In this document: positions 34,226-37,315 of the stretch, piece by piece | Layout: the number at the start of each line of letters is the position of its first letter | Position numbering within the stretch: the stretch's first letter is position 1 | IMG/VR virus record: IMGVR_UViG_3300018719_000034 | Location: 1-54,048 of that record | DNA length: 54,048 nt | Source of the DNA: a virus | Taxonomy: Duplodnaviria; Caudoviricetes | Reading direction: 5' to 3' (one strand) | Translations under genes and position numbers: made by a program | The notes under the pieces: generated by a model | Database searches by the model: none | The model's input: the letters and a program-made list of their open reading frames with translations, nothing else | What the model was told of the DNA's origin: nothing

Positions 34226-34825
34226 GGTGCCTCTCGTTCAAAATGAGGAGCCATCCGGGGTGCGCGTCATAGAGAGGCGTGGACGGCTTTGTTAAGCGAC
34301 TTGTATAGAAAAGGCCCGGCTTCTATTCACATCCTAATCATGTGCATAGGGGCTTGGGCATCATGCCAGCAACAGTTCCCGGCGCATTGCCTGCTGGCTA
34401 TCGAGATGGAGCATGAACACCTGCTTCTTGCGCATCTCGGATAGTTGCAATTCGGTTTGGTTTTCCCTGAGTGTCTGGGTGAGGAAGCGGCGCAACTGAT
34501 CCATGGGATTACCCGAACAGAGAGCCAAGGATGAAGCCCGCAGCGAACAGGCCAACTAGCAGAAGCACGATCACTTCAGAGGCCATCTCTCTACCTCAGC
34601 CAGCCGTTTCGCTCGGCAATGGCCATCTGCACATAGATGCCGGGAGAAACCTCGACCATCACAGCCCCATCGAGTGTGCGGGTGTAACTTCTTCGCTTTG
34701 ACATTTGGGCATGAAAAAGCCCCTGTGCTCGCTTCGGGCAGAGTGCCGAAGGTACTGGCAGGGGCGGGTCCTAGAAACGCTAACGCACTCAGGGTGAAAT
34801 CACCGCCGAGCGCTATGTGAAGATA

Positions 34826-34854
34826 TAACTAGCGCATGAGCTATTCGGTTGCAA
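34826..34854 (-). promoter_or_regulatory. putative late promoter
   Basis: TTGCAA-N17-TAGTTA; a long hairpin plus TTTTT follows at about 34713-34766. Confidence 0.5.
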
Positions 34855-34856
34855 GT

Positions 34857-34887
34857 GAGAAGCGACAGGTTATCCCCATCGCCTCTC
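34857..34887 (-). terminator. stem-loop closing the pentamer array
   Basis: GAGAGGCGA...TCGCTTCTC inverted repeat directly downstream of the array. Confidence 0.5.
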
Positions 34888-34896
34888 TGCTGGCAT

Positions 34897-35151
34897 CAGC
34901 CGAGACCTAACTAGCCCTGCCAAAACAGAACCCGCCAGAACCTACCTCACCTGCCCCGCCCTGCCTTTCCCCGACCGACCTAACCCTGCCTTGCCTGCCA
35001 TGCCTGCCTCGCCTTGCCTCACGCGACCGTACCTCGCCATCCCCGGCCTTGCCTCACCACACCTGCCCTGCCGTGCCTCACCGCAACAGACCTGAACTAA
35101 ACACGCCTTGCCTGCCCAACCGTACCTCACCCCACCTAACCCAACCACGCC
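34897..35151 (-). repeat. GGY-NN pentamer array (candidate guide ncRNA)
   Basis: Manual parse: 47 pentamers (35 start GGY, 9 GTY, 3 other) in blocks of 7, 9, 11, 1, 8 and 11 separated by five GGCA tetramers; last two bases variable. Confidence 0.85.
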
Positions 35152-35159
35152 AATAGCCC

Positions 35160-35639
35160 TCATGCTGCCTTTTGCGGCTGCATGTTCTCGATAACAGCGA
35201 AGAGACGGGCGAACTCTACAAGTTCTGAATGCCTCTTGCGCCAATCCTGCAATTCCTTCCAGGCCTGTGCAAGGACCTGAGCCCGCAACTCGGCGTCAGA
35301 CATCGCGTGGACGACCGAAGTATATGAGCGGTCCTCATCACGCCGGACGTTGACGAACGCTCGGATTGGCTCCTTGCCTTGGTCTGTTTCGCCGTCGCCC
35401 ACCATCGTAATCATGCGGATGACATAGCCAGCCTGTGTGAGGCGGTACTGATGGGCGGCTTTCTTGTCGTTCCACTCAAAAGCAGGATGCAGCGGATTGT
35501 CTTTGTTCCGGGCCTCTTGAACCACATCCTCTTGCGTCAAACGCCCGTTGCGAGAGACGCGGATGCGTTCAAGCTCCTCACCAGCTGCTTGGGCGGGCAC
35601 CGGGACGCCCGCTTGTGGTTTCCAGAAGTAAGTTGTCAT
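35160..35639 (-). CDS. conserved hypothetical accessory protein of the Cas7-like cassette
   Basis: 159 aa; starts 2 nt after the upstream stop; PLHPAFEWND..AAHQYRL.QA motif. Confidence 0.8.
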   Translation of the reverse strand: MTTYFWKPQAGVPVPAQAAGEELERIRVSRNGRLTQEDVVQEARNKDNPLHPAFEWNDKKAAHQYRLTQAGYVIRMITMVGDGETDQGKEPIRAFVNVRRDEDRSYTSVVHAMSDAELRAQVLAQAWKELQDWRKRHSELVEFARLFAVIENMQPQKAA

Positions 35640-35641
35640 GA

Positions 35642-36277
35642 TTACACCTCCACTCCACTAGCGACATGGAAACGGCCATAGACGCCATCGCGTTCAGGCC
35701 GCCACTCTCCAACACCGACCGCAAAACCGGCCGTCTGGAACAGGTTCACCACTTGAGCCGCCGACATGACGTTGGCGTTGTATTTGACCGTAAGAATTGC
35801 CGACCACGGGTCGAACTCGCCGCGATATCGAAGATCAGCCGTTCCCATGCCGACGCGGGCAATGTCCTCGCGCATGGACGGAGGGGGCCCTTTGATCTCC
35901 ACGAACTCGCCCTCGACGTGAAACGCCTGACGAGCTGCCACCTTCGTGATTGAGCCAATGGAGGTGCAGGCAGTCACAGCGGCAGCCTTGAAGGCCACGG
36001 CAGGGAAGCCAAAGCGGCCCTTTTGCACGTCCTCTTCGCTCGGCTGATCCGGCATGCCGTCGAGCCAATACATGCTTTCCACGAAGTCGCGCCAAGGGTC
36101 TTTGGCCTCACGGCCTGCCGACGCCTTCTTGGTCTGTTTGGCGAGCATCTGCTCACGAGCCTTCTTGGAGAAGGCATGAACGATCAGCGGGCTATCCCCG
36201 ACGATGGGAATTTCGATGGTCTTGATAGCCAGAGGAGGCAACTCGATAGCGACGCTGGAACTTGACTTAGCAACCAT
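35642..36277 (-). CDS. stand-alone Cas7/RAMP-like protein
   Basis: 211 aa with AGGAG RBS; IVGDSPLIVH first strand, FPAVAFKAA helix, C-terminal Gly-rich loop GFAVGVGEWRP..G.YGRF; fold inferred from motif order. Confidence 0.7.
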   Translation of the reverse strand: MVAKSSSSVAIELPPLAIKTIEIPIVGDSPLIVHAFSKKAREQMLAKQTKKASAGREAKDPWRDFVESMYWLDGMPDQPSEEDVQKGRFGFPAVAFKAAAVTACTSIGSITKVAARQAFHVEGEFVEIKGPPPSMREDIARVGMGTADLRYRGEFDPWSAILTVKYNANVMSAAQVVNLFQTAGFAVGVGEWRPERDGVYGRFHVASGVEV

Positions 36278-36350
36278 TACGGTCTCCTTTCTCGACTTTG
36301 CGTTTACAAAACTAACCCTAGCGTTTATGATACTGTTCGTCAACCAAAAA

Positions 36351-36365
36351 TAACCGAGGCGGTTA
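36351..36365. promoter_or_regulatory. palindromic candidate operator
   Basis: TAACCG-agg-CGGTTA in the AT-rich divergent intergenic region. Confidence 0.45.
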
Positions 36366-36406
36366 AAATGATTGCCCTGAGTAAGCGTCCTGTGTACGAA
36401 GCGGCT

Positions 36407-36643
36407 ATGATTACGCCCGCTCAAATCCGCGCTGCCCGTGCCCTGCTCGGCTGGAAACAGACCGACCTAGCGGAAGCCTCTGGCGTGTCCGAGATGAGCG
36501 TGAAGAATATCGAGCGCGGCGCGTCCGACCCTCGCATGAGCACCCTTCGGGCCTTGCAGGAGGCGTTCGAGGCTCATGGGGTGATCTTCCTTGAGCCGGG
36601 AACGAACCGGGAGGGCGGCCATGGGGTGCGCTTCAAAGGCTGA
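36407..36643 (+). CDS. XRE-family HTH regulator
   Basis: ITPAQIRAARALLGWKQTDLAEASGVS...IERG..DPR. Confidence 0.9.
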   Translation: MITPAQIRAARALLGWKQTDLAEASGVSEMSVKNIERGASDPRMSTLRALQEAFEAHGVIFLEPGTNREGGHGVRFKG

Positions 36644-36646
36644 CCG

Positions 36647-37315
36647 CTACTCCGCCGCCTCCAGCCGCTGCAATTCCGTTGCCTTGATCTTCACCTTCGA
36701 TGCCCTGCCCATGATGTCGAGCACCACCTCCACCCTGCCCTTTGAGAGCATGGACACGACTTGTGCCTGAAGGTCTGCGAAGGCTCCGACAGTAAGCCGC
36801 ACGACCTCGCCAGGGTTGTACTGAGGGCCAACGTCCGGCAGGCGGGTGAAGTCGAACTCGCCGGCCAACTCCCGCTCAAGCAACCGCGTGAGCGGGCCTA
36901 CGGGCACCTCGACAGGCACCCCCTCGAAGCGGACCACCTTCTCGACACCGTCGACGCCCCGGAGATTGTAGAGATCCTGTCCGCCCTCATTCACGGGCCG
37001 CCCGTAATTCTTCAGACCAATGAACAAATATCTCGGGAACAAGGGCGACTCCCGGGCTTCCTTCTTGCGGGCGTGCACGACCCAGCGCTTGGTCTGTGGC
37101 AAGTAGGTCTGATACCCGGCACGACGGAGGCCGAGCTGCGCCCTCCTCTCGCACTTGGGATTGCAGACGACGACGAACCAGGTGAAGCCTTCGAAGGACT
37201 CCGGAGGCTCGTGGTTGATGGGCGGCACTTCCCGGAACTGAGATACCAGATCCGGGGCGAGCTGCATAAGCCCTTGGGCTTCGGCAGACAGTTGAAGGCG
37301 GGGGAGATTGGTCAT
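36647..37315 (-). CDS. NusG-like late antiterminator
   Basis: WFVV..NPKCE, PLFPRYLFI (NGN), GEVVRLTVGAFA (KOW); Q-equivalent position. Confidence 0.88.
   Translation of the reverse strand: MTNLPRLQLSAEAQGLMQLAPDLVSQFREVPPINHEPPESFEGFTWFVVVCNPKCERRAQLGLRRAGYQTYLPQTKRWVVHARKKEARESPLFPRYLFIGLKNYGRPVNEGGQDLYNLRGVDGVEKVVRFEGVPVEVPVGPLTRLLERELAGEFDFTRLPDVGPQYNPGEVVRLTVGAFADLQAQVVSMLSKGRVEVVLDIMGRASKVKIKATELQRLEAAE

What the first reader, a model, noticed from the sequence alone, without database searches (positions are those of the whole stretch)
34857..36643. Candidate non-CRISPR RNA-guided system: lone Cas7/RAMP-like gene, accessory gene and GGY-NN repeat RNA
Seen: a 1.8-kb cassette between the NusG-like antiterminator and the putative late promoter. 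It has a divergent XRE gene, a 211-aa gene, a coupled 159-aa gene, a 255-nt non-coding pentamer array starting 8 nt after the last stop, and a closing stem-loop. Established: Cas7/RAMP proteins have an N-terminal strand (..SPL..), a P..S.KG-like helix and a C-terminal Gly-rich loop, and they polymerise along guide RNA with fixed periodicity. The 211-aa protein shows those motifs in that order (IVGDSPLIVH, FPAVAFKAA, GVGEWRP..G.YGRF). I recognise no cas1/2/3/5/6 and no CRISPR array in the window. Inference: subunits bind one 5-nt unit each, holding the constant GGY and displaying NN for target recognition, possibly against competing phages. I recall recently reported phage RAMP plus GGY/NN repeat systems (called VIPR); that recollection needs checking before any novelty claim.
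Basis: partly seen in the sequence, partly recalled or inferred. Interest (0 to 1): 0.95.

Follow-up and report, generated by a model that had tools for sequence, protein, structure and literature searches.

The report
Phage VIPR RNA-guided silencing cassette
This prophage carries a VIPR system, a recently described phage relative of CRISPR that uses GGY-NN repeat RNAs to silence rival mobile elements, and its guides appear aimed at sibling prophages while its own gene avoids a perfect match through synonymous codon changes.

Summary
Window 34851-36277 (minus strand) holds a VIPR system, a family described in three 2026 bioRxiv preprints.

- **Effector:** the 211-aa protein matches one solved chain, the SUSP1 Vipr protein (profile E 3.7e-13; hhalign 98.4%). 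It keeps the GGY-contacting residues and folds as a Cas7-type RAMP (pLDDT 95; Csm3 Z 11.1).
- **Accessory gene:** a 159-aa gene follows the homologue in 84 of 93 related loci.
- **Array:** a same-strand GGYNN array follows in 78 of 88 related loci. Here it has 52 units in six phase blocks separated by 1-nt overlaps at GGCA|GG. This matches the published "staggered" architecture.

It is therefore a new member of a known kind.

- Guide 5 spells the PLFPRYLF codons of the NusG-like antiterminator in 13 of 16 closest sibling phages.
- Guide 6 hits a second site in 11 of 20 siblings.
- Guides 3 and 2 hit replication-module genes of two small mobile elements.

The phage's own antiterminator gene matches guide 5 at only 13 of 16 positions. 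All three mismatches are Leu/Arg codon-family switches. Expression and binding remain untested.

The parts
35642..36277 (-). vipr: 211-aa Vipr (RAMP/Cas7-like) effector
   Evidence: It is homologous to the solved SUSP1 Vipr. The only PDB sequence match is 36pp_D 'SUSP1 Vipr protein': E 9.5e-4 with the single sequence, 3.7e-13 with a 65-sequence profile. hhalign against the SUSP1 gene product gives 98.4%, E 5.8e-15, over 169 columns. The AF2 model has pLDDT 95. Best fold matches are Csm3/Cmr4/Cas7 (Z 11.1, 11.0, 10.3; Foldseek E 1e-5). PHROG hit is phrog_4652, unknown function. SUSP1 contact residues H17, R138, D177-W178-R179 align with H34, R152, E191-W192-R193. R152 and R193 are invariant in the 65-sequence alignment.
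35160..35639 (-). vap: 159-aa accessory gene, translationally coupled to vipr
   Evidence: A homologue lies directly after vipr in 84 of 93 related loci with enough DNA. It has no Pfam family; the PHROG hit is phrog_15946, unknown function. No solved relative was found by sequence. There is no detectable similarity to SUSP1 vap1 (hhalign 0.08%). The AF2 model has pLDDT 90: an alpha/beta N-terminal domain plus one long helix at 116-153. Only weak winged-helix-type fold matches appear (Z 5-6, below the tool's trust level).
34897..35151 (-). vrRNA array: 52 GGYNN units (255 nt) in six phase blocks separated by GGCA|GG 1-nt overlaps
   Evidence: The array was parsed. The same parser recovers the four published SUSP1 vrRNAs as a positive control. 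In related loci, 334 of 465 phase slips are GGCA|GGY and the median block is 10 units. No Rfam family matches.
35112..35151 (-). guide 1 (7 units + terminal GGCAG), target unknown
   Evidence: Segmented. No match with 1 mismatch or fewer was found in five whole sibling phage records or in 1.31 Mb of fetched loci.
35063..35112 (-). guide 2 (9 units + terminal GGCAG)
   Evidence: One exact 18-of-18 match in IMG/VR (L100 2919-2944). It lies in frame in an 87-aa phrog_18541 gene next to an AAA_25 primase-helicase. The backward-pattern control gave 0 hits. This target is tentative.
35004..35063 (-). guide 3 (11 units + terminal GGCAG)
   Evidence: One exact 22-of-22 match in IMG/VR (L099 5329-5360). 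It lies in frame in a DUF927 / phrog_1139 primase gene, with the skip base at the wobble position. The backward control gave 0 hits. The much larger metagenome collection also gave 0 hits.
34995..35004 (-). two-unit stub between guides 3 and 5
   Evidence: Segmented. It is too short to act as a guide by the published range of 9-16 units.
34951..34995 (-). guide 5 (8 units + terminal GGCAG): antisense to PLFPRYLF codons of NusG-like antiterminator genes
   Evidence: It has 61 exact IMG/VR matches. Of these, 47 lie in an open frame coding PLFPRYLF. It matches 16 of 16 positions in 13 of the 16 closest relatives that carry the motif. Locus L016 has a homologous guide that differs at one NN base.
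34897..34951 (-). guide 6 (8 guide units, then a 3' part conserved with L016)
   Evidence: The first 7 units match exactly in 11 of 20 sibling loci. Hits with 1 mismatch or fewer number 27 against 1 for the backward control in 1.31 Mb. The full 11-unit pattern has 0 IMG/VR matches. The GGTTCTGTTTyGGCA block is shared with L016.
34851..34890 (-). closing stem-loop after the array
   Evidence: dG -29.1 kcal/mol, z -5.7. No U tract follows it. L016 has a hairpin at the same place with changed stem bases (read by eye).
36278..36367 (.). divergent control region between vipr and the XRE gene
   Evidence: A sigma-70-like site for the XRE gene lies at 36303-36331 (+), matching 10 of 12 positions. The vipr-side promoter (TTGACG, 17 nt, TAGGGT) was read by eye and the scan did not call it.
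37022..37045 (-). own PLFPRYLF codons in the NusG-like gene: non-target by three codon-family switches
   Evidence: The codons read CCC TTG TTC CCG AGA TAT TTG TTC. That matches guide 5 at 13 of 16 positions. The mismatches are Leu TTG, Arg AGA and Leu TTG. The gene is 36647-37312 (-), Pfam NusG E 5.6e-12 and phrog_6386 antiterminator.

Best explanation
The cassette vipr-vap-array (window 36277-34851, minus strand) is a VIPR system carried by a near-complete alphaproteobacterial-type provirus. It sits between the NusG-like late antiterminator gene and the packaging and head genes.

**Established elsewhere for the family (preprints).** Vipr protomers coat a GGYNN repeat RNA, one per unit. They bury each GGY and present the NN pairs. 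The filament binds double-stranded DNA whose sequence reads NN-x-NN-x (one skipped base per unit), and this blocks transcription.

**Shown here.**
- The protein is a Vipr homologue with the contact residues.
- The array has the family's form in its staggered variant.
- The three-part cassette is conserved in related loci.
- Four of its five full-length guides have exact or near-exact 1-nt-skip matches in other mobile elements and none in the phage itself.

**Inferred.**
- One transcript runs from a promoter in the 90-nt divergent region through vipr, vap and the array.
- Each 1-nt register slip at GGCA|GG ends one filament, so the array yields guides of 8-12 units.
- Guides 5 and 6 silence the late antiterminator gene and a second nearby site of VIPR-less sibling prophages, blocking their late genes.
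- Guides 3 and 2 silence replication-module genes of two small integrative or satellite-like elements.
- The phage spares its own antiterminator gene because that gene uses TTG, AGA and TTG where the guide reads CTN, CGN and CTN.
- Vap is a small accessory protein, perhaps DNA-binding, whose role is unknown.

The confidence given is for membership of the VIPR family and the general mode of action. The specific target assignments and the self-sparing idea are less certain (see the section on the most novel reading).
For: **Homology and fold**
- Sequence and profile matches to SUSP1 Vipr.
- Fold.
- Contact residues of the cryo-EM paper align with H34, R152, E191-W192-R193. R152 and R193 are invariant.

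**Family size**
- 6964 of 7178 candidates at E <= 1e-3.
- 3528 representatives at 50% identity.

**Cassette conservation**
- Vap follows vipr in 84 of 93 loci.
- The array is downstream in 78 of 88 loci, upstream only in 3 of 88, and neither in 7 of 88.

**Array form**
- 89 of 95 loci have arrays of 20 or more units, and 334 of 465 slips are GGCA|GGY. Positions 4-5 are near-uniform in base use.
- The preprint's legend for staggered arrays describes 1-nt overlaps.
- L016 (97% identical Vipr) has an almost wholly different NN content.

**Targets**
- Guide 3: 1 hit against 0 for the control, in frame in a DUF927 gene.
- Guide 2: 1 against 0.
- Guide 5: 47 of 61 hits in PLFPRYLF frames, and 13 of 16 siblings perfect.
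- Guide 6: 11 of 20 siblings exact.
- Eight siblings hold exact sites for both guides 5 and 6.
- In guides 2, 3 and 5 the skip base is the wobble base, as the preprints report.
- No self-target above shuffled-order controls.

**Self-sparing**
- The own gene matches at 13 of 16, through Leu/Arg family switches only.
- L016's guide reads AGN at the Arg codon while its own gene has CGG. The window's guide reads CGN while its own gene has AGA.
- TTR is 12% of Leu codons and AGR 16% of Arg codons in a crude 51-ORF set, giving a joint expectation of 0.0024.
Against: - There is no expression or binding data. No RNA run holds this DNA.
- Guide 1 has no target, and one block is a 2-unit stub.
- The guide 2 and guide 3 targets rest on one exact hit each, with one control scan each.
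- Guide 2's one hit in the metagenome collection (L184) lies in a 43-aa open stretch with no similarity to L100. It may be chance.
- The guide 6 site ends a 22-23-aa mini-ORF in only 8 of 13 rows. The other rows have stops just upstream, so it may be a non-coding element, and the wobble rule is not shown there.
- The own-gene match of 13 of 16 (81%) would pass the preprint's 80% threshold, so self-sparing is not proven.
- The self-sparing pattern rests on two VIPR-bearing phages.
- Two VIPR-less records (L177 and L179, identical proteins) carry TTG/AGG/TTG too.
- The gene tree is unresolved, so independent origins are not shown.
- Vap shows no similarity to the one Vap tested at the bench.
- The vipr-side promoter and the late promoter were not called by the consensus scan.
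Confidence: 0.9

Rival explanations
1. Self-regulation rather than conflict. Guide 5 binds the phage's own NusG-like gene through its 13-of-16 match. This damps late antitermination, for example to hold lysogeny or time lysis. The perfect matches in siblings would then be a by-product of gene homology.
For: The own-site match of 81% exceeds the preprint's 80% cut-off. The cassette sits next to the antiterminator gene and shares a control region with an XRE regulator.
Against: - Matches of 13 of 16-18 arise by chance in this 54-kb record, as shuffled-order controls show.
- The three mismatches fall in three different units.
- The guide is perfect against 13 of 16 siblings.
- The guide/gene pairs in the window and L016 are reciprocally mismatched at the Arg codon.
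- Guides 2, 3 and 6 have no own-genome site.
Confidence: 0.1
2. A decaying or inactive cassette. The genes and array are inherited but no longer used. The target matches would be relics.
For: The array has a 2-unit stub, a guide without a target, and several degenerate units such as GTYNN, GGGAT and CGTGA. No RNA data exist.
Against: - Both reading frames are intact, with a strong ribosome site and coupling.
- The contact residues are kept.
- Degenerate units are common across the clade; position 2 is T in 17% of units. The preprint reports frequent internal degeneracy.
- Exact 16-22-base matches to contemporary elements argue for current selection.
Confidence: 0.06
3. Not an RNA array at all. 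The G-rich repeat would be the 100-aa frame 34942-35244, or plain simple-sequence DNA.
For: An ORF of 100 aa spans part of the array. In Mycobacterium phage Donkeykong the equivalent array is annotated as a protein-coding gene.
Against: - The period is 5, not 3.
- The register slips by 1 nt at a fixed motif in 334 of 465 cases.
- NN content is unrelated between phages whose Vipr is 97% identical.
- The NN strings read as codon positions 1-2 of genes in other elements.
Confidence: 0.01

Closest known systems
SUSP1 / Pseudomonas fulva VIPR (type II; bioRxiv 10.64898/2026.04.26.720920 and .720927; PDB 36pp)
   Same: - The gene order is the same: vipr, vap, then the array (SUSP1 record KT454805.2).
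- Vipr is homologous over 169 columns, with H, R and the D/E-W-R contact residues kept.
- The repeat RNA has GGYNN units.
- The setting is viral.
- Guides match coding DNA with the wobble base skipped.
   Different: - Identity to SUSP1 Vipr is only about 25%.
- Vap has no detectable similarity to vap1.
- SUSP1 guides are separate units of 13-16 repeats, each with its own invariant tail. Here guides abut with a 1-nt overlap and no tail between them.
- One closing hairpin ends the whole array.
- The host range is alphaproteobacterial-type prophages rather than a lytic coliphage.
Staggered-array VIPR systems (legend of fig. S18 of 10.64898/2026.04.26.720920)
   Same: [quoted passage not shown] That is what the GGCA|GG slips show here.
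   Different: I could see the legend only. The figure and supplementary tables are closed. So I cannot say which of the seven types this is, or whether this clade is the one depicted.
CRISPR type III / VII Cas7 backbone subunits (Csm3, Cmr4, Cas7)
   Same: They share the RAMP fold (Z 11.1 over 152 residues to 9g9a_D; Z 11.0 to 6s6b_I). Both have a glycine-rich loop and polymerise along a guide RNA at fixed periodicity (family knowledge).
   Different: - Sequence identity is 7-18%.
- No Cas1 was found.
- There is no repeat-spacer array.
- The period is 5 nt, with 3 of 5 bases hidden, instead of 6 nt with 1 flipped.
- It has no cleavage partners.

Membership tests
VIPR | Effector homologous to a characterised Vipr protein | tested here: met
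   36pp_D 'SUSP1 Vipr protein' is the sole PDB sequence match for the profile (E 3.7e-13). hhalign against the SUSP1 gene product gives 98.4%.
VIPR | Minimal RAMP fold: RRM core, glycine-rich loop, thumb; no second RRM | tested here: met
   The model has pLDDT 95 and is a single domain of 211 aa. Top fold matches are Cas7-type RAMPs. The loop GVGEWRP aligns with the SUSP1 G-loop. Assigning the thumb to the 134-155 hairpin is my inference.
VIPR | Residues that hold G1, G2 and Y3 (SUSP1 H17, R138, D177, W178, R179) | tested here: met
   They align with H34, R152, E191, W192 and R193. D to E is the only change. R152 and R193 are invariant in 65 sequences.
VIPR | Adjacent array of at least 4 tandem GGYNN/YNNGG units | tested here: met
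   The array has 52 units at 35151-34897, including an 8-unit perfect run.
VIPR | GGY conserved, NN hypervariable among relatives | tested here: met
   Position use is G 89%, G 75%, Y 88%, with positions 4-5 near-uniform over 5656 units. The parser favours GGY, so only the NN part is unbiased. L016, at 97% Vipr identity, has different NN strings.
VIPR | vap accessory gene beside vipr | tested here: met
   A homologue follows vipr in 84 of 93 loci.
VIPR type II | vap1 homologue, and separate vrRNAs each with an invariant 3' tail | tested here: not met
   There is no similarity to SUSP1 vap1. There are no tails between guides, which instead overlap by 1 nt (compared with SUSP1).
VIPR types I, III-VII | Clade in the Vipr tree, vap2-6 identity, array style | not testable with these tools
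   The definitions are in figures and supplementary data that are closed. The text says only that types II, VI and VII have predicted DNA-binding Vaps.
VIPR | Targets obey the 1-nt-skip rule with wobble-aligned skips; no self-target | tested here: met
   Shown by computation only.
VIPR | Array transcribed, processed and bound by Vipr; DNA binding silences transcription | not testable with these tools
   No RNA data are available. This needs bench work.
CRISPR-Cas (class 1) | cas1/cas2 adaptation genes and a repeat-spacer array | tested here: not met
   Cas1 (PF01867) is absent from the 54-kb record, while the control genomes rang. No tandem repeat has a period above 24. Other cas families were not searched.

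The most novel reading that the evidence does not exclude
VIPR conflicts are fought partly in synonymous-codon space. The guide ignores wobble bases, so the only silent way to evade it, or to spare one's own copy of a gene shared with rivals, is to switch between the two codon families of Leu (CTN/TTR), Arg (CGN/AGR) or Ser. This prophage and its relative L016 each carry a guide against the PLFPRYLF codons of the late antiterminator. Each has its own gene switched at both Leu codons. They hold reciprocal Arg families in guide and gene. This would be a guide-gene arms race among sibling prophages. It would also be a loophole in the published statement that escape requires amino-acid changes.
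Probability: 0.4. Interest if true: 0.7.

Novelty: new member of a known kind. Interest (0 to 1): 0.5.

Why it matters
The system itself is not new. VIPR was described in 2026, and this locus fits it feature by feature. The locus still adds several things.

- **A worked example outside enterobacteria and Pseudomonas.** It shows the staggered array form. The boundary motif (GGCA|GG) and guide length (mode 10-11 units) were counted over 89 arrays.
- **A coherent predicted target set.** Two guides converge on the late-gene control region of VIPR-less sibling prophages. Two others hit replication genes of small integrative elements. This fits the published picture of conflict between mobile elements.
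- **A possible limit to a published claim.** The Leu/Arg codon-family switches in the phage's own target gene suggest how a VIPR carrier can aim at a gene it also needs. They also suggest how targets could escape without changing protein sequence. The passages I read in the preprints do not consider this route.
- **Tractable relatives.** The same clade is present in well-studied Mycobacterium smegmatis and Gordonia phages. In at least one of them the array is annotated as a protein-coding gene.

Tried and rejected
- **Pfam:** no family for either cassette protein.
- **Rfam:** nothing over 34400-36700 except a sub-threshold sRNA match inside vipr. No hammerhead.
- **Vap:**
  - No solved relative by sequence.
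  - Foldseek found nothing at E <= 0.001.
  - VIA-align best Z was 6.0, below the tool's trust level. Winged-helix proteins recur among the hits, which is a lead only.
  - The protein atlas gave only unnamed viral clusters.
- **Complex prediction (Vipr with Vap):** no verdict, score 0.00. This is not evidence either way.
- **The look-up of sequencing runs:** no RNA holder is listed. The one holder is a DNA run that may be the source of this DNA.
- **Guide 1:** no site in five sibling records or in the fetched loci. No collection-wide scan was made, because 14 specified bases would give mostly chance hits.
- **Guide 6 as 11 units:** 0 hits. Read as 7-8 guide units plus a conserved 3' part, it has hits.
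- **Guide 5 pattern against L099/L100 records:** 0 hits. Each of those two elements is matched by only one guide.
- **tRNA genes in sibling loci:** my guess from odd translations was wrong. ARAGORN found none.
- **NusG-like gene tree:** a 16-row polytomy, so no statement on independent recoding is possible.
- **Type assignment (I-VII), and whether this clade is in the preprints' 667 loci:** the supplementary tables and figures are closed, so this could not be checked.
- **Claim that codon-family switching is not discussed:** this rests on term searches in two preprints.
  - Terms in .720920: synonymous, codon, wobble, escape, self-targeting, antiterminat.
  - Terms in .759431: synonymous, codon, escape, self-target, Vap, mismatch, staggered, type II, leucine, arginine, six-fold.
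  - I did not read the whole texts or the supplements.
Full report
**The locus**

The window is one IMG/VR provirus record of 54,048 bases, with CheckV completeness 98%. On the minus strand the order is as follows.
- DNA methyltransferase genes.
- A NusG-like gene (36647-37312; Pfam NusG E 5.6e-12; phrog_6386 'transcription antiterminator').
- A divergent XRE gene (36368-36643, + strand).
- A 211-aa gene (36277-35642).
- A 159-aa gene (35639-35160) that starts 2 nt after the previous stop.
- A G-rich array (35151-34897).
- A strong hairpin (34890-34851; dG -29.1, z -5.7).
- A sequence block conserved with a related phage.
- Two HNH genes, the large terminase and the major head protein.

**Is the named system real?**

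Yes. A full-text search found three bioRxiv preprints from one laboratory.
- 10.64898/2026.04.26.720920 reports the discovery. I read the Results, several Methods sections and the figure legends.
- 10.64898/2026.04.26.720927 reports cryo-EM structures. I read the outline and the first part of the Results.
- 10.64898/2026.10.15.759431 reports competition with satellites. I read the abstract, one Methods section and passages found by term.

They define VIPR as a Vipr RAMP protein, usually a vap gene, and vrRNAs of 9-16 GGY/NN units. Each protomer binds one unit. The NN pairs read double-stranded DNA with one base skipped per unit. Binding silences transcription. Natural targets are rival phages and satellites. 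Seven types are named. Some arrays are 'staggered', with vrRNAs overlapping by 1 nt.

**The protein**

Pfam finds nothing. PHROGs places it in phrog_4652, of unknown function.
- Against all PDB sequences, the only real match is 36pp_D, 'SUSP1 Vipr protein'. The E-value is 9.5e-4 with the single sequence and 3.7e-13 with a profile of 65 diverse relatives.
- I fetched the SUSP1 record (KT454805.2) and located its vipr with that profile. hhalign then gives 98.4% probability and E 5.8e-15 over 169 columns, with about 25% identity.
- The cryo-EM paper names H17, R138 and D177-W178-R179 as the contacts for G1, G2 and Y3. In the alignments these fall on H34, R152 and E191-W192-R193. R152 and R193 are invariant in the 65 sequences.
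- The AlphaFold model is confident (pLDDT 95, pTM 0.89).
- Its best structural matches are Cas7-type backbone subunits. VIA-align gives Csm3 9g9a_D Z 11.1 (rmsd 3.7, 152 residues), Cmr 6s6b_I Z 11.0 and Csm3 6ae2_B Z 10.3. Foldseek gives type VII Cas7 and Csm3 at E about 1e-5.
- The family is large: 6964 of 7178 candidates at E <= 1e-3 among 90%-identity clusters, and 3528 representatives at 50% identity.

**The accessory gene**

- It has no Pfam family, and its PHROG family is of unknown function (phrog_15946).
- It has no solved relative by sequence and no similarity to SUSP1 vap1.
- The model (pLDDT 90) has an alpha/beta N-terminal domain and one long helix at 116-153.
- Fold searches give only weak winged-helix-type matches (Z 5-6). 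I treat these as a lead.
- Its link to vipr is positional and strong: a homologue follows vipr in 84 of 93 related loci.

**The array**

GGY triplets recur at 5-nt spacing, with occasional 4-nt steps. I wrote a dynamic-programming parser that scores GGY at unit starts and allows 4- and 6-nt units at a penalty.
- It reads the array as 52 units in six blocks of 8, 10, 12, 2, 9 and 11 units. Every block boundary is GGCA|GG.
- As a positive control, the parser recovers the four SUSP1 vrRNAs, each 13-16 units followed by a tail.
- I applied it to 94 related loci, 14 from genomes and 80 from viral contigs, plus the window. In all, 89 of 95 have an array of 20 or more units.
- Of 465 four-nt slips in those arrays, 334 are GGCA|GGY and 361 are GGCA|any.
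- Blocks have a median of 10 units, with modes at 10 and 11.
- Positions 4-5 are near-uniform in base use. The GGY frequencies are biased by the parser's scoring.
- This matches the legend of the preprint's figure on staggered arrays.
- With a simpler parser-free count of in-phase GGY pairs, the array lies downstream on the same strand in 78 of 88 loci, only upstream in 3, and is not detected in 7 (L013, L021, L063, L067, L076, L089, L090). Medians are 17 pairs downstream, 0 on the reverse strand and 1 upstream.
- Locus L016, whose Vipr is 97% identical, has a longer array with almost entirely different NN content. It shares one homologous guide and the same 3' end.
- The XRE gene is found beside vipr in only 3 of 89 loci, and the NusG-like gene in 1 of 89. 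The mobile unit is therefore vipr-vap-array.

**Targets**

Following the preprint's method, I replaced each GGY by one wildcard.
- **Own genome.** Within the phage's own 54 kb, no guide scores above shuffled-order controls at any skip length.
- **Guide 3.** With 22 specified bases and the terminal GGCAG unit left off, it has one exact match in IMG/VR (L099 5329-5360).
  - The backward pattern has none. The far larger metagenome collection has none.
  - The site lies in frame in a DUF927 / phrog_1139 primase gene, with NN on codon positions 1-2 and the skip on the wobble base (peptide VEKRIETRDKE).
  - The element also has a P4-type integrase.
- **Guide 2.** With 18 specified bases, it has one exact match (L100 2919-2944), against 0 for the control.
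  - The match is in frame in an 87-aa phrog_18541 gene.
  - That gene lies just upstream of an AAA_25 primase-helicase, in an 11-kb record that also has a portal gene.
  - Its one metagenome hit is unconvincing.
  - The terminal GGCAG unit does not match in either case (0 of 2 and 1 of 2 bases). It is probably a boundary, not guide.
- **Guide 5.** With 16 specified bases, it has 61 exact matches. Read on the other strand, the pattern is CCn CTn TTn CCn CGn TAn CTn TT, which spells P-L-F-P-R-Y-L-F.
  - Of the 61, 47 lie in an open frame with that peptide inside NusG-like proteins.
  - The remaining 14 have stops or other residues nearby and look like chance.
  - I then fetched the 20 closest IMG/VR relatives of the phage's own NusG-like protein. 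Sixteen have the motif, and 13 of the 16 match at a perfect 16 of 16.
  - None of those 13 has Vipr, Vap or an array within 2.5 kb.
- **Guide 6.** It has no match as 11 units. Its first seven units match exactly in 11 of the 20 sibling loci.
  - The eighth unit also matches in the rows where the site is followed directly by TAG.
  - There were 19 exact rows, 8 of them the same contigs fetched twice.
  - Hits with 1 mismatch or fewer number 27 against 1 for the backward control in 1.31 Mb.
  - The site lies about 0.8-2.5 kb beyond the NusG-like gene. In 8 of 13 rows it ends a 22-23-aa mini-ORF. In the others only the roughly 24-nt core is kept, so it may be a non-coding element.
  - Eight siblings have exact sites for both guides 5 and 6.
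- **Guide 1.** It has no site in the data I could search.

**Self-sparing**

- The phage's own motif (37045-37022) reads CCC TTG TTC CCG AGA TAT TTG TTC. That matches guide 5 at 13 of 16 positions. All three mismatches come from using the other codon family for Leu, Arg and Leu.
- L016's homologous guide reads AGn at the Arg position, and L016's own gene has TTG, CGG, TTG. Guide and gene are therefore mismatched reciprocally in the two VIPR carriers.
- In a crude set of 51 long ORFs of this phage, TTR makes up 12% of Leu codons and AGR 16% of Arg codons. The chance of this triple is about 0.0024, or about 0.014 with the gene's own usage.
- Cautions:
  - There are only two carriers.
  - One VIPR-less lineage (L177 and L179, identical proteins) also has TTG/AGG/TTG.
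  - The gene tree is a polytomy.
  - 13 of 16 is 81%, above the preprint's 80% working threshold.
- The preprints argue that wobble skipping defeats synonymous escape and that escape needs amino-acid changes. In the passages returned by my term searches they do not mention codon-family switches.

**How it most likely works**

- **Shown elsewhere for the family:** filament assembly on GGYNN RNA, gapped pairing, triplex R-loop and transcriptional silencing.
- **Shown here:** homology, conserved contacts, array form, cassette conservation, exact gapped matches to other mobile elements, and wobble alignment for guides 2, 3 and 5.
- **Inferred:**
  - Co-transcription from the divergent 90-nt region. 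Only the XRE-side promoter was called by the scan.
  - Guide boundaries set by the register slip.
  - Silencing of siblings' late antitermination.
  - Self-sparing by codon-family choice.
  - A DNA-binding role for Vap.

**Verdict**

The system is a new member of a known kind, probably not type II. The type cannot be assigned without the closed supplements. Its interest lies in the predicted target set and the codon-family observation, not in the system's existence.

Noticed in passing
L183 (Mycobacterium phage Donkeykong NC_051648.1) about 1490-1860 of the locus, record 36870-37256: The annotated 'hypothetical protein' gene 48 is a staggered GGYNN array, with up to 33 in-phase GGY pairs per 200 nt on one strand only. 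It lies directly upstream of the Vipr homologue gp49 (43% identity). A Vap homologue, gp50, follows (34% identity, E 3e-15). Thirty-four phage records, 27 Mycobacterium and 5 Gordonia among them, hold a homologue.
   Followed up: partly
L163 3916-3984 and the matching sites in L164, L167, L170, L172, L173, L180, L182: A conserved 22-23-aa mini-ORF (MVEI..VEES.AERLGLLR) lies where the window has its VIPR cassette. In other siblings only a core of about 24 nt is kept. The window's closing hairpin begins with a related GAGAGGC string, which may mark the cassette's insertion point.
   Followed up: partly
window 34854-34826 and 34765-34714 (minus strand): A block conserved with L016 (TTGCAACC..GCGCTAGTTATAT) is followed about 60 nt later by a long hairpin plus UUUUU. 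This layout would suit late-gene control by the NusG-like antiterminator. Neither the promoter scan nor the terminator scan called them. The hairpin's fold energy is not unusual (z -0.98).
   Followed up: partly
L126 and L059 (same IMG/VR contig): A phage that carries its own VIPR (Vipr 55% identical) is also an exact 16-of-16 target of the window's guide 5. VIPR carriers can therefore be targets of other carriers.
   Followed up: no
L006-L010, 40-90 nt upstream of their arrays: A conserved leader (GGTTACGGCGAGAGTTCT ... CAACCTCGCG) lies between vap and the array in Rhizobiales-type loci. It looks able to form a hairpin. It is absent from the window, where the array starts 8 nt after vap.
   Followed up: no
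L057, L074, L088, L095: In these relatives the array lies upstream of vipr instead of downstream, with up to 99 in-phase GGY pairs per 600 nt in L057. L074, L088 and L095 are the three loci counted as upstream only.
   Followed up: no
L099 5173-5721 and 5594-7027: The DUF927 primase gene targeted by guide 3 is split into two overlapping frames that match the first and second halves of the Pfam model. The cause could be a frameshift, an assembly error or programmed slippage.
   Followed up: no
L177, L179: Two VIPR-less records with identical NusG-like proteins carry the same TTG/AGG/TTG codon families as the VIPR carriers (13 of 16 to guide 5). They could be escape variants or former carriers.
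   Followed up: no
window 34942-35244 (minus strand): A 100-aa ORF rich in Gly, Arg and Ala spans the array. It is a by-product of the G-rich repeat and could be mis-called as a gene.
   Followed up: yes
contig names: L016 (VIPR carrier) shares its metagenome number with three VIPR-less siblings (L173, L181, L182). Guide 2's target L100 shares its number with sibling L172. Carrier, rivals and targets seem to occur together. I did not look into the samples.
   Followed up: no
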